This document shows positions 27,359-50,032 of a DNA stretch of 64,000 nucleotides, piece by piece (within the stretch, counting starts at the first letter, position 1; the number at the start of each line of letters is the position of its first letter). Under the pieces are notes generated by a model that was not told the DNA's origin, did not search any database, and saw only the letters and a program-made list of their open reading frames with translations. The stretch is from assembly GCA_964626075.1 (NCBI GenBank), contig CAZVDD010000013.1, forward strand, positions 31,291-95,290, read 5' to 3'. The position numbers were made by a program, and so were the translations under genes. Source of the DNA: an uncultured bacterium (GTDB taxonomy: Bacteria; Hydrothermota; Tepidihabitantia; Tepidihabitantales; Tepidihabitantaceae).

Positions 27359-28615
27359 TTACTCAAGAAAGAAGATGTTGCGTTTGGCGCAAATCTCTTT
27401 GAGCACCTTGGGCCAGACCGTAACCGATACCTCGCCCAGACTTGCGGTCCTAAGCAGATACATATAGGTCCGCGACTGGCCAATACCACCACCGATAGAA
27501 AGGGGCACCCGATCGTTCATAATCGCCTGATGATAGGGCAACTCAAGGAAATGCTCCTGTTTCGCCATCTTCAACTGCTGAACAAGCGTCTCTTTCGTCA
27601 CACGGATACCCATTGAGGTCAACTCGTGTCGTCTTCTTGTTACCGGATTCCAAACCAGGATGTCGCCGTTCATACCGTGGGTCGGCTTTCCGGTCCAATG
27701 GGAAGTGTCGGTAATCCAGTCGTCGTAGTCGGCTGCCCGCATCTCATGGGGCAACCCATCAGCCAGCGGATAGCCAATACCGATGATGAAAACCGCCGGC
27801 GCATACTCCTGAAGCAGTTTGGTCTCCCGCTGCTTTCGTGGTAAGTCCGGGTACATCTCAAGAATCTCCTCGGCGTGGATGAAGGTCAACTCTTCAGGAA
27901 TGGGCGGATACTTTGTCGTGCGCAACTCCGGAAACTGCTCCTGAACCAGGTGAGATGCTCCCACAATCACCTTCCAGATTTTCCTTACGACATCCTTAAG
28001 ATAATCAAGGTTCCGGTCCTGCGCAGTAATAACCTTCTCCCAGTCCCACTGGTCAACATAAGAGGAGTGGTCGTGGTCCAGGAAATAATCTTTCCGCACT
28101 GCTCGCATATCGGTGCAAATCCCTTCACCTACCTTGCACCCAAACTGCGCCAGCGCCAACCGCTTCCACTTGGTCGCTGCCTGAACAATCTGAGCGTTGA
28201 TTCGTGGGGAAATGCCCAGTCCACAGGGAAATTCGACCGGAGTCCTGGAACCATCCCGGTCCAGATAGTCGTTGACCCCTGACTCCCGCTCCACAATCAA
28301 GGGCACCTGAACCATATGCAGGTTCAGTTCCCGGCACAGGTTCTTCTCAATGTACTCCTTGATCATAAAGAGCGCGTCCATCCGTTTTAGCGGCGGTAGA
28401 ATCGGCTCGTAATCGGTGGGTAAAATTTTCTCCACCTCTTCATAGGTGCCGACACCTGGACCGGCTAAATCGGCTCGCTTCTTATCCAGAAGCGTCGGTG
28501 CTGCGCTCTTGAGCGAGGCTTTCTTCGGTATCTTTTTTGCCACTTTTTTCTTAGTGACTTTTTTCACCGTCTTGCGTGCGGTCTTCTTCACCGCCTTTTT
28601 CTGCTTTTTCTTCAT
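27359..28615 (-). CDS. asnA: Aspartate--ammonia ligase (asparagine synthetase A) with a ~75 aa N-terminal extension, including a 40 aa lysine-rich histone-H1-like tail.
   Basis: Core aligns to E. coli AsnA (SSYVDQWDWE, GDILVWNP, SMGIRV, IGGGIGQSR). ATG at 28615 preceded by AAAGGAG Shine-Dalgarno. N-terminus MKKKQKKAVKKTARKTVKKVTKKKVAKKIPKK. Confidence 0.85.
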   Translation of the reverse strand: MKKKQKKAVKKTARKTVKKVTKKKVAKKIPKKASLKSAAPTLLDKKRADLAGPGVGTYEEVEKILPTDYEPILPPLKRMDALFMIKEYIEKNLCRELNLHMVQVPLIVERESGVNDYLDRDGSRTPVEFPCGLGISPRINAQIVQAATKWKRLALAQFGCKVGEGICTDMRAVRKDYFLDHDHSSYVDQWDWEKVITAQDRNLDYLKDVVRKIWKVIVGASHLVQEQFPELRTTKYPPIPEELTFIHAEEILEMYPDLPRKQRETKLLQEYAPAVFIIGIGYPLADGLPHEMRAADYDDWITDTSHWTGKPTHGMNGDILVWNPVTRRRHELTSMGIRVTKETLVQQLKMAKQEHFLELPYHQAIMNDRVPLSIGGGIGQSRTYMYLLRTASLGEVSVTVWPKVLKEICAKRNIFFLE

Positions 28616-28775
28616 CTGCTACACTCCTTTTTGTTAATCTACTTCTTACATCATATTTAAAGGAAAATCGGCATATTAAGGATAACAACCCCGACTTAAT
28701 CTGTCAAGGATTAATGACACCCGAAACGCCGTTCGATGCTCAATTTACCACTCCAAAATTGATTAAGGATTTTTG

Positions 28776-28804
28776 TTGACAAGCGGCTTAGGGGGTGTTA
28801 AAAT
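28776..28804 (+). promoter_or_regulatory. Near-consensus sigma70 promoter (TTGACA 28776-81, 17 nt spacer, TAAAAT 28799-804) driving the candidate sRNA.
   Basis: Read directly from the sequence. Confidence 0.55.
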
Positions 28805-28810
28805 TAACCA

Positions 28811-28967
28811 CAATTTGGTGAGGTGGAGGCGGTTGTTTCAGGCGACGGAACGGCATCTCAACCTCCTCAAAAAGCCCAAAGGAATGCCCTCGCATTCCAA
28901 TCCCACCAAAAAAGCCTCGCCTGAAACCGGCCCTGGCCGCATCCACCTCACATTTTGTTTTATATTT
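28811..28967 (+). ncRNA. Candidate ~150 nt rod-shaped small RNA. The 5' and 3' ends pair and it has an intrinsic-terminator-like 3' end.
   Basis: 5' GGUGAGGUGGAGGCGG (28817-32) pairs with CCGCAUCCACCUCAC (28937-51) with one mismatch. An inner perfect 10 bp helix pairs UUUCAGGCGA (28836-45) with UCGCCUGAAA (28917-26). An apical 7 bp hairpin GGAAUGC-CCUC-GCAUUCC lies at 28881-98. A U-tract AUUUUGUUUUAUAUUU follows the closing helix. The overlapping 81 aa ORF has no coding support. Confidence 0.45.
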
Positions 28968-29022: not shown

Positions 29023-29943
29023 TTATCGGGCAAGTTTGCGGGCAAGCTGAATCGCTGCCAGCGTAGAGTGGTGTGATGCAATGCCCTGGCCCGCAATGTC
29101 AAAGGCAACGCCGTGCAGCGGAGACGTGCGCACCGCTTCTAAACCAAGGGTCACATTCACCCCCCTCCCCTGTGAGAGCAGTTTTGCCGGAATCATCGCC
29201 TGGTCGTGATACATCGCCACGAATCCATCAAAATCATCCAGATGGGCGAAAATGGCATCCGCGGGTATGGGACCGAATGCCGCTACCTTTTTCTTCTGTG
29301 CCGATTTAACACCGGCTTCAATCCGCTTTTCTTCACCAGTAGAGAACTCCCGCCCGTGCGGATTGAACGCCAAAACCGCAATCTTAGGTTGCGCGCCGTG
29401 TCGGAATCGTTTGGGGGCTTCTCGTCTCAAAAATTCGTCAATGAGCAGTATCTTCTCCTGCACCGCTCGGGCTGTAATCAACGGCGCAACACGACCCAGA
29501 GGCACATGGATTGTTACAAAAATCACCTTGAACCGCCTTGACCAGGCAAGCATCGCATAACGCCGAGCCCTTAACCGTTGGGCAAGAAACTCAGTTTGCC
29601 CCGGAAACGGAAAACCGGCAAGCCGCAGCGCCTCTTTGGACACCGGTGCAGTAACAAGGGCGCCAATCGTACCGTTTCTCAGTAACTCCACCCCTCTTTC
29701 CAGCGCGCGCCACGCTGCAACACCACAACCTTTCTGCACCCTGCCGTACTCGTATTTACCAACCGGCCCAGTGTCTATCACCCCAACCCCATCATAGTTA
29801 ACCTTCAGCCGTTTTGCCTCCCACTTCAACACCTCTTCCGAACCGATGAGCAAAATATTTCTCCGCTCGGTTTCCTGAACAGCCCGCAACACCGTTTCCG
29901 GACCAACTCCTGCCGGGTCGCCAAGGGTAATACCGATCTTCAT
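29023..29943 (-). CDS. pdxA: 4-hydroxythreonine-4-phosphate dehydrogenase family protein (PdxA/PdxA2 family, 306 aa).
   Basis: N-terminus IGITLGDPAGVGPE typical of the PdxA family. Confidence 0.75.
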   Translation of the reverse strand: MKIGITLGDPAGVGPETVLRAVQETERRNILLIGSEEVLKWEAKRLKVNYDGVGVIDTGPVGKYEYGRVQKGCGVAAWRALERGVELLRNGTIGALVTAPVSKEALRLAGFPFPGQTEFLAQRLRARRYAMLAWSRRFKVIFVTIHVPLGRVAPLITARAVQEKILLIDEFLRREAPKRFRHGAQPKIAVLAFNPHGREFSTGEEKRIEAGVKSAQKKKVAAFGPIPADAIFAHLDDFDGFVAMYHDQAMIPAKLLSQGRGVNVTLGLEAVRTSPLHGVAFDIAGQGIASHHSTLAAIQLARKLAR

Positions 29944-41896: not shown

Positions 41897-42613
41897 CTAT
41901 TCAAAAATCCGTTCCACCGCCTGGTCTTCAACCCAGCCGCCTATACCACCCGGAATCTGAATCAACACAAACCCGGGCCGGCGCTCAACAATCTTGACCT
42001 CCAACCCATCGTGCACCGCGGCGATCTCCTTGTACTCTTCACCCGGTCCGGAGCGTAAAATCGCCTCAGCCACCACCACCACCGCCTTTGCCCGATTGAC
42101 CATACCTTGCCAGATTAGCGCCCCGGCACCAAAGTAGAGAAAAACAACTGTTAACCCGATTGCCCCATAACCCAAAAACTTTTTGCCCGTGCTCAGATAG
42201 AGCCCGAGACAAAGCGCCAGGACGAAAAACAAAAACCCGGCAAGAAAACGGGTTGTCAATCGGTCAAACGGTGTCAGGAGATTACGCACCGTTGTTGTCA
42301 ACGGGCTTTCCGGATTGGGATTTTTATCCGGTCGGAAGTTGCGCACAAAGGCGATGTTGCTCGTTATGTCCGGGTCGTGCGGCTTGAGCGCCCAGGCACG
42401 GAGATAGTCCGCGAGCGCCCTGCCCAACCTACCTAACTTGAAATGGGTATTGCCCCGATTGTAATAAATCTCCACCGCCGCGGCCTCCTGCGCCGCCGAG
42501 TCGTAAAGGACAATGGCATCTTCAAACCGTCCTGCCTCGTAAAGTTTGTTTGCCCGTTCCAACTGTTCAACCGGTAGTGCAAACACCAATATCAGCGTCG
42601 CAAGTAAACTCAT
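41897..42613 (-). CDS. batE: BatE-like TPR plus SH3b-domain protein (238 aa).
   Basis: N-terminal TPR, central TM, C-terminal SH3-like region. Terminal position in the Bat operon. Confidence 0.55.
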   Translation of the reverse strand: MSLLATLILVFALPVEQLERANKLYEAGRFEDAIVLYDSAAQEAAAVEIYYNRGNTHFKLGRLGRALADYLRAWALKPHDPDITSNIAFVRNFRPDKNPNPESPLTTTVRNLLTPFDRLTTRFLAGFLFFVLALCLGLYLSTGKKFLGYGAIGLTVVFLYFGAGALIWQGMVNRAKAVVVVAEAILRSGPGEEYKEIAAVHDGLEVKIVERRPGFVLIQIPGGIGGWVEDQAVERIFE

Positions 42614-44367
42614 ATCTTTTTGACAACTCCGCGTGCCTTTTGTAAAACCGCCCGCGGGTTACAGTCGCTCATCCCGGGCGAAAACCGGGCAAGGGCACAA
42701 AGCTGCACCGTGTCCAGCAAATCCTGCACCGCTCCCGCATCGGCGCCCTGTCGGGTCAACGCATCTTTTATCTCCGCACCGGTCAAAGCACCGGTTTCAA
42801 TGTTGAACCGGTCCCCAGCATAAGAAAGTAACGCCTGATACACCAGACTGTAAAAGTCGGCAATCCGGTTTGCGCCCAGCGCTTTTTCCGCCTGTTTCAA
42901 CCGGCGGGTTGCAACCTTCCGCGCATTACTGCGGCGGGCATAACCCGGGTCAAGTTGCAACTTGCGCCGCCGGACACCAAACCCGATGCCGAACGCCATC
43001 ACAACCAGCCCCACTATGTAAAACAACTTAAACCAGGATTCATAACCCGCCAACCGGTTACCGGTCAAGCGCAGTTCGGTCTTGATATGCCTGATGTCCG
43101 TACCCAGAACCCTCATTCCGGTCGCGGTCGTATAATCCTCCCCGCTTCTTGCCGGCACACCGAGAGCGACAAACTCCAAAGGCGGCGTCTTTCTTATGTA
43201 GTAACTACCCGTATTCGGGTCAAAGAAACCAATCTCAACCTCCGGAATCCGGAATTTACCGTCGGCCAGCGGCAAAAGTGGATATTCAAACCGCCTTGTA
43301 CCCTTGAGCCCGCCGCTGGCGTAATTGCAATCGTCCTTTGTCTCCGGGCTCAAGACCTTCAAACCGGTAATCGCCGGCAGAGTTGGCGCACCAATTAAAC
43401 CAAGGTTACCGGTTCCGGTGATAACAAGCGAAAGCATAACCGGTTCACCACCCTTTGCCGTTTCCGGCACCACCCGGGCACTAACCTGAAACGAACCAAC
43501 ACCACCGGTGAACGATGTTGGTCTTCCTGTTTCGGGCAGCGCCTTTACCTCAACCGTCACCTCTTCCGAATTAACCTCAAACGGCTTAGCGGTTGAGAAG
43601 AAAAACCCCGGCGCCACCATCTCACCGGCAAGGCTCATCTTGCCAATCTTCAACTGCCCGGCACGGGTGGGAAACAGCGCGGTCTTTCGCACCACCGCGC
43701 CGAACATCTGCCTGCCCCGATAGTTTCGCCTTTCATAATTCAGTTTTTGCGGTTGATAAACCTCTTGAGTCCAGAAACCGCTCAGGGGCGGCGGCTCTTT
43801 GATATTCAAACTTACCACCTGCCCTGTGGTGTAAAATGTCCAGGTTGCGGTTACCATCTCACCCTGATAAACCGTTTTTCGGTCCACGCTCACATCAAGA
43901 AAAACCTCGCCTCGGGCCGGTTCCGGCTCTTCAAAGATATCAAAGGGGCTGCGCTGGGGTTGCGAGCGCTTTGTCTGAGTCCCGGTTTTTGTCACCTTAA
44001 CCGTTATTGGTTCGGTTGTGTACTCCGTCCCGTTGTAGTTCAACCGGCAGGGTCCGATTACCAGCTCGCCGGTCTTTTTCGGAATCAGGGTGTAGATAAA
44101 ACTGATTGTCTGCTCCTGAGTCACCCGGCCCTGAACAATTGAAATACTTGTTGACTGTGACTGGCTACTGCCGACATTGTCAAACCCGGCCAGTTCGGGC
44201 AACTGCGGCTTCGGCACCCGGCCTACATTCGTTCCGCTTACCTGAACAATCAACTGCAACGGCTCACCCAGCCCAACCGTCATCCGGTCAACCTCGGCAG
44301 TAAACCGCAACTCACCCCCGGTCGCGAGGGCCAAAAACAAACCAAAGGTCGCAATCCAGCGCCGCAT
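42610..44367 (-). CDS. batD: BatD (oxygen tolerance) protein (~585 aa).
   Basis: Signal peptide plus a large beta-rich extracytoplasmic domain, C-terminal TM and basic tail. Start reassigned to the ATG at 44367, which is TAAGATG-coupled to the batB/C stop. Confidence 0.6.
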   Translation of the reverse strand: MRRWIATFGLFLALATGGELRFTAEVDRMTVGLGEPLQLIVQVSGTNVGRVPKPQLPELAGFDNVGSSQSQSTSISIVQGRVTQEQTISFIYTLIPKKTGELVIGPCRLNYNGTEYTTEPITVKVTKTGTQTKRSQPQRSPFDIFEEPEPARGEVFLDVSVDRKTVYQGEMVTATWTFYTTGQVVSLNIKEPPPLSGFWTQEVYQPQKLNYERRNYRGRQMFGAVVRKTALFPTRAGQLKIGKMSLAGEMVAPGFFFSTAKPFEVNSEEVTVEVKALPETGRPTSFTGGVGSFQVSARVVPETAKGGEPVMLSLVITGTGNLGLIGAPTLPAITGLKVLSPETKDDCNYASGGLKGTRRFEYPLLPLADGKFRIPEVEIGFFDPNTGSYYIRKTPPLEFVALGVPARSGEDYTTATGMRVLGTDIRHIKTELRLTGNRLAGYESWFKLFYIVGLVVMAFGIGFGVRRRKLQLDPGYARRSNARKVATRRLKQAEKALGANRIADFYSLVYQALLSYAGDRFNIETGALTGAEIKDALTRQGADAGAVQDLLDTVQLCALARFSPGMSDCNPRAVLQKARGVVKKI

Positions 44368-44368
44368 C

Positions 44369-46030
44369 TTACCAGTCCTTTTCCACCTGACGCCTTGCCC
44401 GGGGCTTGCGCACATCCTTCTGAACCTGGCGCTCCTTGTTTTCCACCGCCTGCAAAACCCGCTCCGCCTCATCCTTCGCCATTCCCGATTGCCCCTGATA
44501 TTCTGGCGCCCGCGGCTGTTCTTGTTGCCTTCCTCCTGATTGCTGCTGCTGGCTCTGACTGGAATCTGGCGCCTGCTTCATTTCTTCCTTTCTCTTCAAA
44601 CAGAACTCTAAATTCTCCTTTGCCTGTCGGTCGTTCGGATTGGAGAGCAAAGCCATTTTATAAGAATTAATCGCCTCATCCAGTTTCCCCATCCGATAAA
44701 AACTGTTACCCAGATTGTAAAAGGCGTTACTGCGTTTGCGCTGATTTCTGTCCACCGTTGCCAGCGAAAGCTCTTTGATTGCCTCATCAAATTTACCCAG
44801 CCGATAGTAGGTGTTGCCGATATTGTAGTGAATCGCCAGGGCATCGGGCTCCAGCACCTCAGCCCGTTGATAAAAACTGAGCGCCTCCTGATACTTGCCC
44901 CGCCGGAACAAACCATTGCCCGCCCGCAACAAATTGGGCACATCGCCGTTTGCCGTTTGCACAACAACAAGAGAAACAACAAACCCGACCAGCGCTGCCC
45001 GCCGCCGATTAGAAGTGAATCGCCCCTTAATAAAGGGGCTCAGCGGGTTGCGGACCGCCGGTAAAGCAAGGCTAAAGAACAGCAGCAAAATGCCCGTCAA
45101 CAAAAAAACTTGATACCGCTCCACATAGTTAGAAAAACTGCCCCCACTCAACTCCTCTTTTTCCAGCCGGTCAAACTCTCCGGCCAGTTTCGGTGCCGAA
45201 AACCCCTCCATTCGATAAAAACGGCCGCCGGTTGCCTGCGCGATAAGAATCAACTTGCGTTCATCCATCCTTGAAATCACCACCTGCCCAGCACGGTCTT
45301 TTTTGTAAACCACACCCCCTTCTTTTCTTTCCGGAATTGGCGCCCCCTCCGCACTGCTGAACGCCACCGGATAAATCCGCACCCCCAGTTCCTTCGCCAC
45401 CTGCACCGCCTGTTCAGTCTGGGTTCCGAGGTCCTCGCCATCGGTGATTAAAACGAGCGCCCTGCTACCCGGTGCAGTACTCCTAAACAGTTCACTCGCT
45501 TTCCGAATCGCCTTGCCGTAATCGGTGCCCGGCACCGGCATCAAATCCGGGCTGATGATGTCAAGGAACAGTTTTGCCGCCTCGATATCGGTTGTCAGCG
45601 GGCATAGGATATGAGCATCACCGGCAAAGGCGACAATGCCCACCGCGTTACCGGTAAGTTCATCAAGCAAAGCGGCGACTTCGGTCCGGGCGCGCTCAAG
45701 CCGGTTCGGCTTGACATCCTCGGCAAGCATCGACTTTGAGGCGTCAAGGGCAATCACCACCGCCACACCCCGACTCTTAAACATCTGTAATCTCTCGCCC
45801 CATCTCGGTCGCGCCAGCGCAACGACCATCAGCCCGAGCCCGAGAACCAAGAGCATCAGTTTCACCCATTCAAGAAAAGGCGCGCGGCTGGGTTCAATCC
45901 GGGCAAGCAACTGCGGTTCAATAAAACGGGTAACCCGTTTTCGGTCCCGATTTCGGACAACGATAAAAAACACCATGATTACCGGCAGGGCAAGCAGAAG
46001 ATACAGTATGCGCGGTGCGCCCCAGTGCAT
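44369..46030 (-). CDS. batB: BatB/BatC fusion: von Willebrand factor A domain plus TPR repeats (553 aa).
   Basis: N-terminal TM, VWA MIDAS motif VIALDASKSM, C-terminal TPR repeats, then a Q-rich tail. Confidence 0.65.
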   Translation of the reverse strand: MHWGAPRILYLLLALPVIMVFFIVVRNRDRKRVTRFIEPQLLARIEPSRAPFLEWVKLMLLVLGLGLMVVALARPRWGERLQMFKSRGVAVVIALDASKSMLAEDVKPNRLERARTEVAALLDELTGNAVGIVAFAGDAHILCPLTTDIEAAKLFLDIISPDLMPVPGTDYGKAIRKASELFRSTAPGSRALVLITDGEDLGTQTEQAVQVAKELGVRIYPVAFSSAEGAPIPERKEGGVVYKKDRAGQVVISRMDERKLILIAQATGGRFYRMEGFSAPKLAGEFDRLEKEELSGGSFSNYVERYQVFLLTGILLLFFSLALPAVRNPLSPFIKGRFTSNRRRAALVGFVVSLVVVQTANGDVPNLLRAGNGLFRRGKYQEALSFYQRAEVLEPDALAIHYNIGNTYYRLGKFDEAIKELSLATVDRNQRKRSNAFYNLGNSFYRMGKLDEAINSYKMALLSNPNDRQAKENLEFCLKRKEEMKQAPDSSQSQQQQSGGRQQEQPRAPEYQGQSGMAKDEAERVLQAVENKERQVQKDVRKPRARRQVEKDW

Positions 46031-47010
46031 TACACCAGCCTCCGGTTGATAACCATCCCAAAACTAAATCCGGCAAATGTAAATATCAAGCCGAGAAGTA
46101 ACGGCAGCGCCATCCGCTCCTGATACAGCGTATAACGCCGGGCTTTAAAGGTCGAAGGTTCCAGCCGGTCAATCTCTTCATAAACCCGCTTCAGCGCCTC
46201 CGGGTCGGTGGCAAGAAAGAACTTGCCACCGGTAATCGCGGCAATCTTCTCCAGCGTCTCGGTGTCAAGGTCAACCTCCACCTGAACATACCGCCTGCCA
46301 AAGAGCGGGTCGTCAACCGGAAACGGTACCGGACCCTTACTGCCAACCCCAATCGTGTAAATCTTAATACCCAGCGCCGCTGCCGCCTGCGCTGCGGTCA
46401 AAGGGTCGATATCGCCCGTGTTGTTGCGGCCATCGGTCAAGAGGATAATCACCTTTTCCCGCGCCTTCGACCCCTTGAGCCGCGCCGCGGCACTGGCGAT
46501 GCCCATTCCAATTGCGGTGCCATCTTCCAGCGTGCCAAACTCCACCCGGTCCAAGATGTCGTTGACAATACTATGGTTCAGCGTCAAGGGACACTGGGTT
46601 AAACTGGTTGCGGCAAAAATCACCAGGCCGATGCGGTCCCCGGTTCGGCGGTTGACAAACTCCTTTGCCCGCTCCTTAGCAACGGTGAGGCGGTCTTTGG
46701 GCAGAAAGTCTGCCGCCTGCATCGTACCCGAAATGTCCAGACAGAGCATAATGTCAATCCCCCGGGTCTCCAGTTCCTCAAACATCCGTCCCTTTTGCGG
46801 TCGCGCCAGCGCCAGCGTGGAAAACACCAGCGCCAGCGAATAACAGAAAAGGGGCAACTGCGTCAGCACCTGCTCGAAAACCGTCGGTGCCGGCAGCAGG
46901 GTCGTGTCACTAAACTGCAGGCAACTGCGCCGGCGCTGGCGCTCCCACCACCACAAAATTGGCACCAGCGCCAGAAGTGCCAGATAACCCGGATGCGCCA
47001 GATGCCACAT
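46030..47010 (-). CDS. batA: BatA: von Willebrand factor A domain membrane protein (326 aa).
   Basis: Two N-terminal TM helices. VWA MIDAS DIMLCLDISGTM. Confidence 0.7.
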   Translation of the reverse strand: MWHLAHPGYLALLALVPILWWWERQRRRSCLQFSDTTLLPAPTVFEQVLTQLPLFCYSLALVFSTLALARPQKGRMFEELETRGIDIMLCLDISGTMQAADFLPKDRLTVAKERAKEFVNRRTGDRIGLVIFAATSLTQCPLTLNHSIVNDILDRVEFGTLEDGTAIGMGIASAAARLKGSKAREKVIILLTDGRNNTGDIDPLTAAQAAAALGIKIYTIGVGSKGPVPFPVDDPLFGRRYVQVEVDLDTETLEKIAAITGGKFFLATDPEALKRVYEEIDRLEPSTFKARRYTLYQERMALPLLLGLIFTFAGFSFGMVINRRLV

Positions 47011-47013
47011 CGC

Positions 47014-48126
47014 CTAACCTCCGCTTTGCACCGACGTGTTACCACGCGCCCCTGCACCGTTGCTGCCGGTCGATTCCGGCGCCGGCATCGTCAGTTCCAC
47101 CAGTTGCCGTGCCTGAACCACCACCTCTTGCGGCTTATCCGGAATATGCTTGGCATACTTCACCCGGTCGGTTTCAAAAAAGAACAACCGGAACCGTTCA
47201 ACTTCCGGCACCTTCCGCTGCCGCAACTCCCGCAGAATCTCGCTCGTTGTCTGGTCAATTGCGGGAAACCCAAAACGCCGGGTCAAGTACCGCTTCACAA
47301 TCTCCGATATTGTGTAGTAATACCGCTTCACCTGGCCATTGCCCAACAACTCTTCAACCGGCACCTGTTCCAGCGCCCTTAACGCCTCCTCCCAGGGTGA
47401 AAGCAAGGGTGCCAACTCAGCCTGTTTCTGCCGGAAACGCCTCAACAGCCGGTAACCCCAATACCCGCCTGCAACTAATACCAGCGCGCCGAGCAACACC
47501 CAGAGCGGCATTAGATTGGGAAACTCCACCTGGGGTTTGATGTCGTTGATGTCCTGCATCCGTTCGTTAATTAAACTCAGCACCCTCACCGGCAGTGAAT
47601 CGCTCGCCGCGGCACACAACCCGCTTCCATCCTGATAGGTCACGAGAAAGGGCGGCAGTTTTCGCTCGCCCACTGTCCACAAAACCAGCGTCAGATTGTA
47701 AACATCAAAGGCGGTGTCGCCCCGGAAGTGAATCTGATGTCTCTGCTCACTGACGGTAAAATCGTCGCCCTTTTCCACAAACGGTGGCGAAACGGTCAAA
47801 TTGCGCGGATGGGAAACTGTCACCGCCACCTTTAACCGGTCGCCAATCGTCAAGGCTTTGCCTTTTTTCTCTGTAACCCGCACCGCGACCCGCACCGGTC
47901 CATCTTGAACCAGACGATAAGGTCGAGGGGGCGTTGTGTCTGCCAGACTGTCCGCCTGAGCCCATAGTAGCCCAAAAAGCAACCCTAACGCCAAAACTAT
48001 CCCGGCCGCTTTTCTTTTTCTCTCTCCTTGTCTGACCTTCCCTTGATGGAAAAAGACAAAGCGGAGGTTGCCCGCTTCCACCCTGCCGCGCTTCTGCTCT
48101 GCTGTCCTGCGCCGCATTTCCCTCAC
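47014..48126 (-). CDS. Bat-operon membrane protein of unknown function (~370 aa; start GTG 48126 or ATG 48117).
   Basis: Signal/TM helix, periplasmic domain, second TM, cytoplasmic C-terminus. Conserved position between DUF58 and batA. Confidence 0.5.
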   Translation of the reverse strand: MREMRRRTAEQKRGRVEAGNLRFVFFHQGKVRQGERKRKAAGIVLALGLLFGLLWAQADSLADTTPPRPYRLVQDGPVRVAVRVTEKKGKALTIGDRLKVAVTVSHPRNLTVSPPFVEKGDDFTVSEQRHQIHFRGDTAFDVYNLTLVLWTVGERKLPPFLVTYQDGSGLCAAASDSLPVRVLSLINERMQDINDIKPQVEFPNLMPLWVLLGALVLVAGGYWGYRLLRRFRQKQAELAPLLSPWEEALRALEQVPVEELLGNGQVKRYYYTISEIVKRYLTRRFGFPAIDQTTSEILRELRQRKVPEVERFRLFFFETDRVKYAKHIPDKPQEVVVQARQLVELTMPAPESTGSNGAGARGNTSVQSGG

Positions 48127-49025
48127 CGATAACGCCGTGCCCGTTCCTGAAAGAACCGATGTAGCTTCGGGGTAAACGGTTCGTCGGTTAAAAGGGAAAT
48201 ATGGTCCACCCCGAGCCGCTGAAACAACCGGCTCAATGCCTCCTGCTGCCGCTCCGTTCTCTGCCGGAACTCATCCTGAACCCGCCGGGCACTCGTGTTC
48301 ACCAGAACCCGTTTGCCCGTTTCCGCATCAACAAACTCCCGCAACCCCAGCGCCGGCAGATTCAGCTCTGCCCGGTCATTGATGCTCAACACCACCAGAT
48401 CGTGCTGCCGGCTCATAATCGAAAGTGGCTTCTCAAACTCGGCACCGACAAAACCCGGACCGAGCAAATCCGACACCAGAAACACAATCGCCCGGCGTTT
48501 AAGGATGTGCAAAACAAACTCCAGTGCTGTGCCCGGTGCTGTTCCCAAACCTTCCGGCTGAAAGTAGAGGATGTCTCGTACCAGGCGTAACACCTGCGTC
48601 CGTCCCTTTGATGGGGGCACAAAGTGCTCAATCCGGTCGGTAAAAAATACCAGCCCCACCTTGTCGTTGTTCTTAATTGCCGAAAACGCCAGTGTCGCGC
48701 TCACCAGCGCCGCCTGCTCAATCTTCAACGCCCCCCTTGTGCCAAACCGATTGGAACCCGAAGCGTCCACCACCAGCATTACCAGAAGTTCCCGCTCCTC
48801 GGCAAACAACTTGACAAACGGCTTGCCAAACCTTGCGGTCAAGCGCCAGTCAATCGTCCGCACATCGTCGCCCACCTGATATTCCCTGGTGTCGGCAAAC
48901 TCCACCCCGCGCCCCTTGAAACTCGACCGGTAATCACCGGCAAACACCGTGTTAACCAAACGCCGGGTGCGAATCTCAATCTGCCGGATTTGGGAAAGTT
49001 CCCGTCGCAGTGTCACCGTCCGCAT
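48123..49025 (-). CDS. DUF58 domain protein (300 aa).
   Basis: DWRLTARFGKPFVK..VVDASGS motif of the DUF58 family. Always paired with MoxR. Confidence 0.75.
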   Translation of the reverse strand: MRTVTLRRELSQIRQIEIRTRRLVNTVFAGDYRSSFKGRGVEFADTREYQVGDDVRTIDWRLTARFGKPFVKLFAEERELLVMLVVDASGSNRFGTRGALKIEQAALVSATLAFSAIKNNDKVGLVFFTDRIEHFVPPSKGRTQVLRLVRDILYFQPEGLGTAPGTALEFVLHILKRRAIVFLVSDLLGPGFVGAEFEKPLSIMSRQHDLVVLSINDRAELNLPALGLREFVDAETGKRVLVNTSARRVQDEFRQRTERQQEALSRLFQRLGVDHISLLTDEPFTPKLHRFFQERARRYR

Positions 49026-49030
49026 CGTCT

Positions 49031-50032
49031 TTACGGCACCTCCACCCCTTCCAGCACGCGCCGGATGATATCATCAGTTGTCAACTCCTCCGCCTCTGCC
49101 TCGTAAGTCAAAATCAGCCGATGCCGCAGCACATCGTAGGCGAGTTCCTTGATATCCTCCGGAATCACAAAACCCCGGCGCCTTAAAAACGCCATCGCCC
49201 GACTCGCCGTCAACAGATAAATTGACGCCCGCGGTGAAGCGCCATAGCGAATCAGCGGCACCAGGTCGGCAAGATTGTGCTCCCTGGGAAACCGGGTCGC
49301 AAACACCAAATTAACGATGTAATCCTTCAACTTTTCATCAACATAGATACGGGTACACAACTCCCGGGCCCGCAGTATCGTTGCGCTGTCAACCACCGGC
49401 GTCACCTTCGGCTCAACCCCTTTTGTCATCCGCTCAACAATCTGTTTCTCCTCTTCCTTTGAAGGATAACTCACCCGCAGTTTCAGCAAAAACCGGTCAG
49501 TCTGCGCCTCCGGCAAGGGATAGGTCCCCTCCTGCTCAATCGGGTTCTGGGTCGCCAGAACCAGAAACGGCTCCTCCAGCCGAAAGGTCTCTTCCCCAAT
49601 CGTCACCTGCCGTTCCTGCATCGCCTCGAGCAGCGCGCTCTGCACCTTAGGTGGTGCCCGGTTGATTTCATCCGCCAGGACAAAATTGGCAAAAATCGGC
49701 CCCTTGCGCGCGGTAAACTCGCCGGTGCGTTGATTGTAAATCTGCGTGCCGATGATGTCGGCGGGCAAAAGGTCGGGCGTAAACTGAATCCGCTGAAACC
49801 GGGCGCTGATTGCACCGGCAAGCGCCTTCACCGCATAGGTCTTTGCCAGTCCGGGCACGCCCTCAATCAAAATGTGCCCGTTTGCTAAAAGCCCGATGAG
49901 CAGCCTCTCAATCAAATACTTCTGCCCGACAATCACCTTGCCGACCTCAGCGGTCAGCGCCTGAACAAACACACTCTCTCTTTCTATCTCCTCATGAATC
50001 CGTCTGATATCATCCTGCTGTAACTCGCTCAT
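49031..50032 (-). CDS. moxR: MoxR-family AAA+ ATPase (333 aa).
   Basis: Walker A GVPGLAKT. MoxR-typical ..RIQFTPDLLPADI.G. Walker B ADEINRA. Confidence 0.88.
   Translation of the reverse strand: MSELQQDDIRRIHEEIERESVFVQALTAEVGKVIVGQKYLIERLLIGLLANGHILIEGVPGLAKTYAVKALAGAISARFQRIQFTPDLLPADIIGTQIYNQRTGEFTARKGPIFANFVLADEINRAPPKVQSALLEAMQERQVTIGEETFRLEEPFLVLATQNPIEQEGTYPLPEAQTDRFLLKLRVSYPSKEEEKQIVERMTKGVEPKVTPVVDSATILRARELCTRIYVDEKLKDYIVNLVFATRFPREHNLADLVPLIRYGASPRASIYLLTASRAMAFLRRRGFVIPEDIKELAYDVLRHRLILTYEAEAEELTTDDIIRRVLEGVEVP

What the first reader, a model, noticed from the sequence alone, without database searches (positions are those of the whole stretch)
28776..28967. Candidate ~150 nt rod-shaped sRNA with its own consensus promoter
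A TTGACA-17-TAAAAT promoter drives a transcript whose 5' end pairs with its 3' end: GGUGAGGUGGAGGCGG with CCGCAUCCACCUCAC. Inside that helix sit a perfect inner 10 bp helix and an apical 7 bp hairpin, which are separated by asymmetric single-stranded bubbles. A U-tract follows the closing stem, like an intrinsic terminator. The architecture (closing stem, central bubble, apical stem) recalls 6S RNA, though it is shorter. It also carries SD-like GGAGG and anti-SD-like CCUCCUC motifs, which could alternatively pair. It lies between asnA and pdxA and is transcribed away from asnA.
Basis: seen in the sequence. Interest (0 to 1): 0.6.

Follow-up and report, generated by a model that had tools for sequence, protein, structure and literature searches.

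The report
Conserved small RNA with anti-Shine-Dalgarno loop
This is a real, previously uncatalogued small non-coding RNA gene of uncultured WOR-3-type bacteria, with its own strong promoter, a stable stem scaffold and one never-changing loop that looks built to pair with ribosome-binding sites; it is not a 6S RNA.

Summary
Window 28776-28961 (+) carries a TTGACA-17-TAAAAT promoter, a ~140-150 nt transcript whose ends pair, and a T-tract (fold -61 kcal/mol, z = -5.5).

It is a genuine gene. I found the same element, always convergent with pdxA, in 12 distinct sequence versions from metagenomes and MAGs, whose PdxA is only 56-83% identical. Flanking intergenic DNA diverges, while the -35/-10 hexamers and their 16-17 nt spacing persist in all of them.

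In two GC-rich relatives the RNA is only 45% identical overall. Every helix there (P1, P2, P3, P4) is kept by compensatory changes: 25 of 40 pairs, 96% of cells paired against about 40% when the partners are slid. G·U pairs fix the strand as +, and 1-nt indels exclude a coding ORF.

The architecture is a rod (P1, conserved 7-nt bulge, P2) capped by a three-way junction, not a 6S-type bubble. No Rfam 15 family matches even at E ≤ 10.

The only long invariant stretch is the P3 loop 16-mer GCAUCUCAACCUCCUC, which contains the anti-SD heptamer ACCUCCU. The unpaired interior is C/A-rich, with 1 G in 45 nt.

Best reading (about 0.45): a trans-acting anti-SD base-pairing sRNA, working like the αr14/CcsR "cuckoo" RNAs but unrelated to them. 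No target was identified.

The parts
28776..28781 (+). -35 hexamer TTGACA
   Evidence: TTGACA is invariant in the 11 AT-richer promoter sequences read and is TTTACA in the two GC-rich ones, while the spacer sequence diverges.
28796..28804 (+). Extended -10 element: TGT + TAAAAT
   Evidence: TG before the hexamer: yes. Homologs carry TAAAAT, TATAAT, TAAAGT, TAATAT or TAAATT, always 16-17 nt after the -35.
28812..28961 (+). Predicted transcript of ~150 nt. The start is inferred 6-9 nt after the -10 and the end lies in the T-tract. The covariance-model match covers 28817-28955.
   Evidence: In several homologs the -10 lies only 6 nt before the first G of the closing stem, so the conserved RNA starts at the stem.
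28818..28834 (+). P1 5' strand (closing stem, purine-rich: GUGAGGUGGA-G-GCGGUU)
   Evidence: Pairs with 28935-28951. 11 of its 17 pairs show changes on both sides across 11 sequences.
28835..28848 (+). P2 5' strand (GUUUCAGGCGA, bulged C, GG)
   Evidence: Pairs with 28915-28927. Invariant among close relatives; 6 of 11 pairs are compensated in L108/L109.
28852..28876 (+). P3 hairpin: a 3-4 bp stem (GGC/GCC) presenting a 19-nt loop
   Evidence: The stem pair G-C changes to A-U in L108/L109 (columns 37/63). The loop is unpaired in the ensemble.
28853..28868 (+). Invariant 16-mer GCAUCUCAACCUCCUC, containing the anti-SD heptamer ACCUCCU. It is the proposed seed.
   Evidence: Identical in all 11 aligned homologs, including those only 45% identical overall. 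Its complement reads GAGGAGG-UUGAG-AUG, an SD plus spacer plus start codon.
28881..28898 (+). P4 hairpin (7 bp, loop CCUC)
   Evidence: 6 of 7 pairs are compensated in distant homologs. The loop varies (CCUC, ACUC, AUCC, UCCUU, CCCCA) but stays pyrimidine-rich.
28899..28914 (+). J4/2 single strand AAUCCCACCAAAAAAG (second C-rich motif, UCCC(C)AC)
   Evidence: Unpaired. The GC-rich homologs have ...GCCUCCCCAC... here.
28915..28927 (+). P2 3' strand
28928..28934 (+). Conserved 7-nt bulge CGGCCCU between P2 and P1, with an invariant GCCC core
   Evidence: GCCC is invariant in all 11 sequences. The same bulge position appears in the L109 fold.
28935..28951 (+). P1 3' strand (pyrimidine-rich)
28953..28961 (+). 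T-tract (UUUUGUUUU) directly after P1, giving terminator-like 3' end formation
   Evidence: A T-run follows P1 in 9 of the 12 versions and is weak in L105. L108 instead has a separate canonical terminator hairpin downstream, and L109 has none obvious.

Best explanation
Window 28776-28961 (+) is the gene for a stand-alone, probably abundant small RNA that is confined, in the DNA I could search, to WOR-3-related uncultured bacteria.

**Transcription.** A near-consensus sigma-70 promoter fires a ~140-150 nt transcript. Its first and last ~17 nt form a long G·U-tolerant closing stem (P1). Together with the following U-tract, P1 ends transcription and protects both ends.

**Scaffold.** P1, a conserved 7-nt bulge and a second helix (P2) form a rigid rod. 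A three-way junction sits on top of it.

**Business end.** The junction displays G-free, C/A-rich single strands. The main one is the invariant P3 loop, AUCUCAACCUCCUC. The others are the C/U-rich P4 loop and the UCCC(C)AC strand.

**Proposed mechanism.** These strands pair with purine-rich Shine-Dalgarno and start-codon regions of one or several mRNAs. The perfect complement would be GAGGAGGUUGAGAUG. Pairing would block 30S binding and repress translation, with possible effects on mRNA decay.

**Shown:** the gene, promoter, strand, secondary structure, non-coding nature, invariance of the loop and its accessibility.

**Inferred:** base-pairing as the mode of action, translation as the process affected, and trans action.
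For: **Real gene**
- The promoter hexamers and their 16-17 nt spacing are kept in 13 sequence variants, while the spacer and flanks diverge.
- RNA identity to the window is 86-99% in relatives whose PdxA is only 59-83% identical. Overall alignment identity drops to 45% in L108/L109, yet the fold is kept.

**Structure**
- 25 of 40 pairs have changes on both sides and 96% of cells are paired, against 36-47% when partners are slid.
- 0 of 500 shuffles reach the observed values.
- z = -5.46.

**Strand and coding**
- G·U pairs fix the strand as +.
- 1-nt indels in the A-runs exclude a coding ORF.

**Seed-like pattern**
- The only long invariant block is the 16-mer in the P3 loop. It is unpaired with probability above 0.9.
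- The unpaired interior has 1 G in 45 nt, against 23% G overall.
- The P4 loop and J4/2 vary in sequence but stay C/U-rich.

**SD use by the host**
- GGAG lies at -20..-4 of 16 of 57 ORFs, against 5% background. GGAGG is at 12% against 1.2%.

**Precedent**
- αr14/NfeR1 and CcsR 'cuckoo' sRNAs carry an ultraconserved CCUCCUCCC anti-SD motif in unpaired loops, while their stems differ strongly in sequence (PMC10746234, PMC8034643).

**The complement occurs as real start sites**
- GAGGAGGTTGAGATG occurs as a genuine SD+ATG gene start in several unrelated viral contigs, for example L129, L116 and L138.
Against: - No target was found. Nothing in the 64-kb window or in about 170 kb of related loci shows conserved complementarity at a start site. 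This includes the syntenic glycosyltransferase-ABC-pdxA operon.
- Sixteen invariant nucleotides plus an invariant bulge (GCCC) is more than a typical 6-9 nt seed needs. That fits recognition by a protein or a large RNP at least as well.
- P2 is sequence-invariant across nine versions in which P1 has changed repeatedly. This again hints at sequence-specific recognition of the scaffold.
- There is no expression data.
- No chaperone is known for this clade.
Confidence: 0.45

Rival explanations
1. The RNA is a protein-binding or sequestering RNA, or the RNA subunit of an RNP. The invariant loop, the invariant bulge and the sequence-constrained P2 helix would be a composite binding site for a conserved protein or machine. 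That partner could be RNA polymerase, as with 6S or Ms1, but not necessarily. P1 would only be a stabilising stem.
For: - Conservation is housekeeping-grade: a 16-nt invariant loop, an invariant GCCC bulge, and P2 unchanged in nine versions while P1 drifts.
- A near-consensus promoter suggests high constitutive expression.
- Truncated B. subtilis 6S-1 RNAs with only short arms still complete the 6S cycle in vitro (abstract of PMC8876501). Shortness alone therefore does not exclude RNAP binding.
Against: - No Rfam 6S, SRP, Y, RNase P or tmRNA match at E ≤ 10 on three divergent homologs.
- The architecture is a three-way junction with a 19-nt hairpin loop, not an open-promoter-like bubble between two long helices.
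- The helical length beyond the junction is only 5-8 bp.
- P2 and P4 sequences are freely replaced in L108/L109. The scaffold sequence is therefore not universally required.
- No candidate partner gene is linked to the RNA.
Confidence: 0.25
2. The RNA is a mimic or decoy of the 16S rRNA 3' tail. It would present AUC..ACCUCCU, as the ribosome's anti-SD tail does. It would act globally by titrating SD-led mRNAs in bulk, or by titrating a factor that recognises the 16S 3' end, such as a maturation RNase, bS21/bS1-type proteins or a toxin. This would make it a translational counterpart of 6S.
For: - The loop contains the exact anti-SD heptamer ACCUCCU, preceded by AUC as in ...GGAUCACCUCCUUUCU-3' (the 16S sequence is from general knowledge; the loop is).
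- Two further aSD-like pyrimidine tracts occur: the P1 3' strand CCACCUCAC, and the 3' tail UUCCUCC in L109.
- The promoter is strong.
- The host uses SD sequences.
Against: - The resemblance upstream of the heptamer (GGAAC, like the helix-45 loop) is not kept in L105, L108 or L109.
- A 7-mer plus a 3-mer match is statistically weak.
- The invariant part extends 5' of the aSD (GCAUCUCA), where it does not match 16S.
- There is no evidence on abundance.
Confidence: 0.12
3. The element's role is local to pdxA. Either the convergent transcripts interfere with each other, or the rod acts as a 3' barrier or terminator element for pdxA. The RNA product itself would be secondary.
For: - The only constant neighbour is pdxA, always convergent, with 24-62 nt between the pdxA stop and the RNA 3' end. 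This held in all 12 versions.
- The other flank varies: asnA, DUF72-rtcA, a TPR protein, a polysaccharide deacetylase, a glyoxalase.
Against: - The transcripts need not overlap.
- On the pdxA strand the stem is not followed by a T-tract.
- A mere terminator would not keep a consensus promoter, a three-way junction and a 16-nt invariant loop.
- pdxA exists without the element in L106 and L110.
- Synteny may simply reflect the narrow clade sampled.
Confidence: 0.06

Closest known systems
αr14 (NfeR1) and CcsR 'cuckoo' sRNAs of Alphaproteobacteria
   Same: - Stand-alone sRNAs in which an ultraconserved CCUCC-type anti-SD motif sits in unpaired loops.
- The stems differ strongly in primary sequence.
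- Several C-rich presentation sites occur per molecule (PMC10746234, PMC8034643).
- The same conservation pattern is seen here.
   Different: - No sequence or covariance-model relationship: Rfam scans are empty.
- The motif here is (AUCUCAA)CCUCCUC, present once. It is not CCUCCUCCC repeated in every loop.
- The scaffold is a long 5'/3' closing rod with a bulge and a three-way junction, not 2-3 tandem hairpins.
- The phylum is different (WOR-3-like).
- There is no DUF1127 gene association.
6S RNA
   Same: - Its own strong promoter.
- 5' and 3' ends paired into a long closing stem.
- A large unpaired interior.
- High conservation within its clade.
   Different: - No covariance-model hit.
- About 140 nt, against about 180 nt.
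- The interior is a three-way junction (P3 and P4, both with compensatory changes), not a bubble followed by a long terminal helix.
- Only 5-8 bp lie beyond the junction.
Cyanobacterial Yfr1 and Firmicute RsaE/RoxS (from my own knowledge, not tested here)
   Same: Clade-wide sRNAs whose most conserved part is an unpaired C/U-rich stretch flanked by stems (Yfr1: ACUCCUCACAC; RsaE/RoxS: C-rich loops). That stretch pairs with SD regions.
   Different: - Much shorter and simpler scaffolds.
- Unrelated sequences.
- Rfam models for them did not hit.
Bacterial Y RNAs (rsr/rtcBA-linked)
   Same: - A 5'/3' paired stem with a large structured module.
- In three lineages the gene lies directly downstream of rtcA.
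   Different: - No Ro/TROVE or rtcB gene in any held locus.
- No tRNA-like domain and no Rfam Y/YrlA hit.
- The window lineage has lost DUF72-rtcA from the locus but kept the RNA.

Membership tests
6S RNA (RF00013 and clan) | Matches the 6S covariance model | tested here: not met
   No hit at the gathering threshold in the window. No hit at E ≤ 10 on the window locus, L109 or L108.
6S RNA (RF00013 and clan) | A single irregular rod: closing stem, central bubble, then a long terminal stem (~180 nt) | tested here: not met
   The interior is a three-way junction with P3 (3-4 bp, 19-nt loop) and P4 (5-8 bp), each kept by compensatory changes. Total length is about 140 nt.
6S RNA (RF00013 and clan) | Binds the sigma-70 holoenzyme and templates product RNAs | not testable with these tools
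   Needs biochemistry or pRNA reads.
αr14 / CcsR 'cuckoo' sRNAs | CCUCCUCCC motif in the loop of each hairpin | tested here: not met
   One loop carries CCUCCUC. The other unpaired parts are C-rich but different: CCUC, UCCCAC, and GCCUCCCC in L108/L109.
αr14 / CcsR 'cuckoo' sRNAs | Loops ultraconserved while the stems vary | tested here: met
   The 16-mer is invariant in 11 of 11 sequences. 25 of 40 stem pairs have double changes.
αr14 / CcsR 'cuckoo' sRNAs | Homology, meaning a match to an Rfam model of the family | tested here: not met
Bacterial Y RNA | Encoded next to rsr (Ro, TROVE domain), with a tRNA-like module | tested here: not met
   No TROVE gene in any locus table. ARAGORN found nothing. 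There is no Rfam hit. Only rtcA adjacency was seen, in 3 lineages.
Bacterial SRP (4.5S) RNA | Domain IV motifs with a GNRA tetraloop, and a covariance-model match | tested here: not met
   No Rfam hit. The molecule is not a single hairpin.
Retron msr-msd | a1/a2 terminal repeats with a reverse transcriptase gene downstream | tested here: not met
   The downstream neighbour is always convergent pdxA. No RT domain appears in any neighbouring gene.
Small protein gene | Reading frame preserved among homologs | tested here: not met
   Single-base indels in the A-runs and in P2 differ between versions. The ORFs called on either strand (81 aa +, 52 aa -) have no Pfam match.
Sigma-70 promoter plus intrinsic-type 3' end | -35 and -10 hexamers at 16-18 nt spacing, and a stem followed by a U-run | tested here: met
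   for the window. The hexamers are conserved in 13 variants. A U-run follows P1 in 9 of the 12 versions, and L108 uses a separate terminator hairpin. Use of either element in vivo was not tested.

The most novel reading that the evidence does not exclude
The RNA is an abundant, clade-specific global regulator of translation. It would mimic the anti-SD tail of 16S rRNA. It would either compete with 30S subunits for SD-led mRNAs or titrate a factor that reads the 16S 3' end. That would make it a translational counterpart of what 6S RNA does for transcription, and a kind of riboregulator not yet described.
Probability: 0.1. Interest if true: 0.85.

Novelty: new member of a known kind. Interest (0 to 1): 0.55.

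Why it matters
Candidate division WOR-3 and its relatives are mostly known from metagenomes, and I found no paper on their RNA regulators (one full-text search returned nothing).

This would be a well-supported RNA family for that clade. It has clear gene boundaries, a secondary structure backed by compensatory changes, and a 16-nt invariant single strand that gives an immediately testable handle. The covariance models built here (R1, R2) could seed an Rfam family and help stop gene callers from placing spurious 44-52 aa ORFs on it.

If the anti-SD reading is right, it extends the 'ultraconserved anti-SD loop on variable stems' design from Alphaproteobacteria, Firmicutes and Cyanobacteria to a deep-branching uncultured lineage. 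That would point to convergent evolution of this regulatory solution.

If the protein-binding or 16S-mimic reading is right instead, it would be a new housekeeping-type RNA.

Tried and rejected
1. **Rfam.** The gathering scan of the whole window and permissive scans of three divergent homologs gave only chance snoRNA, CRISPR-DR or HCV fragments outside or across the element. Membership in any known family is rejected.
2. **AsnA-anchored loci.** I used the single genome-contig scan on AsnA. AsnA turned out to be patchily distributed across phyla. None of the 80 loci has the RNA by nhmmer/blastn, model R1 or model R2. In hindsight PdxA would have been the better anchor.
3. **Metagenome 20-mer scan**. 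It gave 6 true loci and 2 chance matches (L099 and L101, both inside unrelated sequence).
4. **Viral-contig 16-mer scan**. The 36 hits are about the number I estimated for chance. None is a homolog by the covariance model. Many lie inside coding sequence, and a few are real SD+ATG starts.
5. **Target search.** I looked for fuzzy matches to the loop complement and to the J4/2 complement. I also ran duplex energies against all start regions of the window and against the conserved upstream operon in 10 lineages. Nothing was conserved or outstanding. The 12-nt match at 43232-43248 lies inside batD and lacks the AUG.
6. **rtcA / Y-RNA lead.** rtcA lies upstream in 3 lineages only. There is no Ro or rtcB, and the window has no rtcA.
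7. **Coding hypothesis.** Rejected because of indels and the absence of any Pfam match.
8. **Alternative GGAGG/CCUCC pairing and product-RNA-type refolding**. No stable alternative fold appeared and there is no covariation for it.
9. **Helix-45 (GGAAC) mimicry.** The motif is not conserved in L105, L108 or L109.

Full report
**1. The observation**

The sequence at 28776-28967 is as described.
- The consensus scan finds TTGACA (28776-81), a 17-nt spacer and TAAAAT (28799-804) with an upstream TG. That is 11 of 12 matches.
- The downstream 156 nt fold to -61.4 kcal/mol, against -39.1 ± 4.1 for 200 dinucleotide shuffles. This gives z = -5.46, and no shuffle folds as well.
- The reverse strand folds less exceptionally, z = -3.9.
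- The fold has five parts:
  - a closing stem, 28818-34 with 28935-51, carrying one G·A mismatch;
  - a 7-nt bulge on the 3' side, 28928-34;
  - an 11+2 bp inner helix, 28835-48 with 28915-27;
  - a 7-bp hairpin, 28881-98;
  - long unpaired C/A-rich stretches between them.
- A T-tract (28953-61) follows the stem directly.
- Pfam confirms asnA (27359-28615, -) and pdxA (29023-29943, -) as the neighbours.

**2. Is it a real gene? Comparative evidence**

*Close relatives*
- Contigs carrying the identical PdxA are 100% identical across the intergenic region and so carry no information.
- PdxA homologs point to candidate division WOR-3 as the nearest named group, at 63-64% identity.
- I fetched contigs for PdxA relatives of 98, 83 and 77% identity. 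The 407-nt intergenic region has diverged except for one block. That block starts at the -35 hexamer and ends at the T-tract (alignment A1).

*Wider sampling*
- PdxA relatives of 56-64% identity and a metagenome scan with a 20-mer raised the count to 12 distinct versions.
- In all 12 the element sits directly downstream of pdxA and converges on it.
- The other neighbour varies: asnA, DUF72-rtcA on the same strand, a TPR protein, a polysaccharide deacetylase or a glyoxalase.

*Promoter*
- The -35 is TTGACA, or TTTACA in the two GC-rich lineages.
- The -10 is TAnnnT, always 16-17 nt further on.
- The spacer sequence itself is not conserved.
- That pattern is what a used promoter looks like.

*Distribution*
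- The element is absent from this position in two further relatives, L106 and L110.
- It is also absent from 80 AsnA loci of other phyla.
- There is one copy in the window.

**3. Structure, strand and coding potential**

*Closely related versions*
- Among the eight distinct close sequences aligned, only the closing stem varies.
- It varies by compensation, for example U-A to C-G, G-C to A-U and G-C to U·G. Five pairs have double changes.
- 0 of 500 shuffles reach the observed count of such pairs (1 of 500 for the covariation score), and slid controls show 0-2 such pairs.

*The two GC-rich homologs*
- L108 and L109 were found only by the covariance model, at 27-39 bits with R1.
- They are 45% identical to the window RNA overall but fold the same way.
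- With them included, 25 of 40 pairs show changes on both sides.
- 96% of cells are paired, against 36-47% when the partners are slid.
- P1, P2, P3 and P4 each have compensated pairs.
- Caveat: that alignment was fitted to the model, which favours the structure. The independent MFE folds of L108 and L109 still agree on P1, the bulge, P2 and P4.

*Strand and coding*
- Numerous G·U pairs would be A·C mismatches on the other strand. Together with the promoter and T-tract this sets the strand as +.
- Single-base indels in the A-runs and in P2 differ among versions.
- The 81-aa (+) and 52-aa (-) ORFs have no Pfam match.
- It is therefore not a protein gene, although gene callers annotate short antisense ORFs on it.

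**4. What is conserved**

Across all 11 aligned sequences only 39 columns are invariant.
- Sixteen of them are contiguous: GCAUCUCAACCUCCUC (28853-68), which is the 3' part of the short P3 stem plus most of its loop.
- Four more are the GCCC of the bulge.
- The loop is unpaired in the Boltzmann ensemble.
- The unpaired interior of the window RNA (45 nt) contains 21 A, 17 C, 6 U and a single G. The whole RNA is 23% G.
- The P4 loop changes (CCUC, ACUC, AUCC, UCCUU, CCCCA) but stays pyrimidine-rich.
- The strand returning from P4 to P2 keeps a UCCC(C)AC or GCCUCCCC motif.
- The invariant loop contains ACCUCCU, the anti-Shine-Dalgarno heptamer of 16S rRNA (general knowledge).
- Its full complement reads GAGGAGG-UUGAG-AUG-C, which is an SD, a 5-nt spacer and a start codon.
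- The host uses SD sequences. GGAG lies at -20..-4 of 16 of 57 ORFs against 5% background, and asnA itself has AAGGAG.

**5. Mechanism**

The pattern is variable stems, one ultraconserved G-free loop carrying an anti-SD core, and additional C-rich single strands.
- It matches what is described for αr14/NfeR1 and CcsR 'cuckoo' sRNAs (PMC10746234, PMC8034643).
- From my own knowledge, it also matches Yfr1 and RsaE/RoxS.
- I therefore favour a trans-acting base-pairing sRNA that occludes ribosome-binding sites. P1-P2 would serve as a nuclease-resistant scaffold, and in most lineages as the terminator stem.

This step is inferred, and I could not find a target.
- No start region in the window or in related loci shows outstanding or conserved complementarity. 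This includes the syntenic glycosyltransferase-ABC-pdxA operon in ten lineages.
- The best stray match, 12 nt at 43232-48, is inside batD and lacks the AUG.
- Only about 240 kb of relevant DNA was available, so this is weak negative evidence.

**6. Rivals**

*(a) A protein or RNP partner, including an RNAP-binding 6S-like role*
- For: the extent of invariance (16 nt plus the bulge, with P2 frozen among nine versions) exceeds seed requirements. The promoter also looks constitutive.
- Against: no covariance-model hit, a three-way-junction architecture, and free replacement of the P2 and P4 sequences in distant homologs.

*(b) A 16S 3'-tail mimic or decoy acting globally*
- This is attractive but rests on a 7-mer.
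- The extra GGAAC resemblance to helix 45 is not conserved.

*(c) A role local to pdxA*
- This rests on synteny only.
- A terminator would not need a promoter, a junction and an invariant loop.
- pdxA exists without the element.

**7. Comparison with known families**

- No Rfam 15 family matches at gathering thresholds in the whole window. None matches at E ≤ 10 on three homologs spanning the family's diversity.
- The 6S defining features that could be tested, the model match and the bubble-plus-terminal-helix rod, are not met.
- Y RNA, SRP RNA, retron msr-msd and small-protein readings each fail a defining feature (see the membership table).
- It works most like the cuckoo/αr14 type but is not a member of that family.

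**8. Verdict**

This is a genuine, uncatalogued small RNA family of WOR-3-related bacteria.
- The 6S analogy is not supported.
- It is new as a family, while the likely mode of action is a known kind.
- My confidence that it is a transcribed structured ncRNA gene is about 0.95.
- My confidence that it acts by anti-SD base pairing is about 0.45.
- Interest is 0.55. It is a solid, well-bounded new RNA with an unusually long invariant single strand in an unexplored phylum, but it has no target, no partner and no expression data yet.

Noticed in passing
window 27359-28615 (-): AsnA (aspartate-ammonia ligase) is 418 aa and carries a ~75-aa lysine-rich N-terminal extension (MKKKKQKKAVKK...). Relatives of 60-79% identity over residues ~40-418 turn up in MAGs labelled as many different phyla and even archaea. 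The distribution is patchy and looks like horizontal transfer.
   Followed up: partly
L096 6150-7196 (-), L097 4131-5183 (+), L104 3347-4141 (-): In three lineages the RNA gene lies immediately downstream of a DUF72-rtcA (RNA 3'-phosphate cyclase) pair on the same strand, and its promoter overlaps the rtcA 3' end. asnA sits further out, so the window lineage appears to have lost DUF72-rtcA from this locus. I saw no Ro or RtcB gene.
   Followed up: partly
window 41897-50032 (-): A complete aerotolerance-type operon: MoxR AAA ATPase, DUF58, DUF4381, BatA-like VWA, BatB-like VWA+TPR, BatD and a TPR/SH3 protein.
   Followed up: no
L087 (Logan SRR10519663 contig), end = window 28812: One short public contig that covers pdxA and the RNA gene stops exactly at the predicted transcription start. 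This could be chance, or it could mark a transcript end if that run is RNA-derived. I could not check the library type.
   Followed up: no
L085 4165-4323, L094 6187-6321, L107 4024-4170; window 28788-28946 (-): Public gene calls place 44-52 aa hypothetical ORFs on the RNA gene, mostly antisense to it. These are almost certainly artefacts.
   Followed up: yes
window 28679-28707 (-): A TTGACA-17-TATCCT promoter-like site for asnA, divergent from the sRNA promoter. Its -35 region (TCTGTCAAGGA on the + strand) is one of the few other conserved blocks of the intergenic region.
   Followed up: no
window 1-64000: There is no tRNA gene (ARAGORN) and no Rfam hit at gathering thresholds in 64 kb.
   Followed up: yes
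L129, L116, L138 and others (IMG/VR contigs): The exact complement of the invariant loop, GAGGAGGTTGAGATG, serves as an SD + spacer + ATG start of unrelated viral genes. Eight other hits are one conserved internal coding segment (MRMEELCKTYAV...) of a phage protein family.
   Followed up: partly
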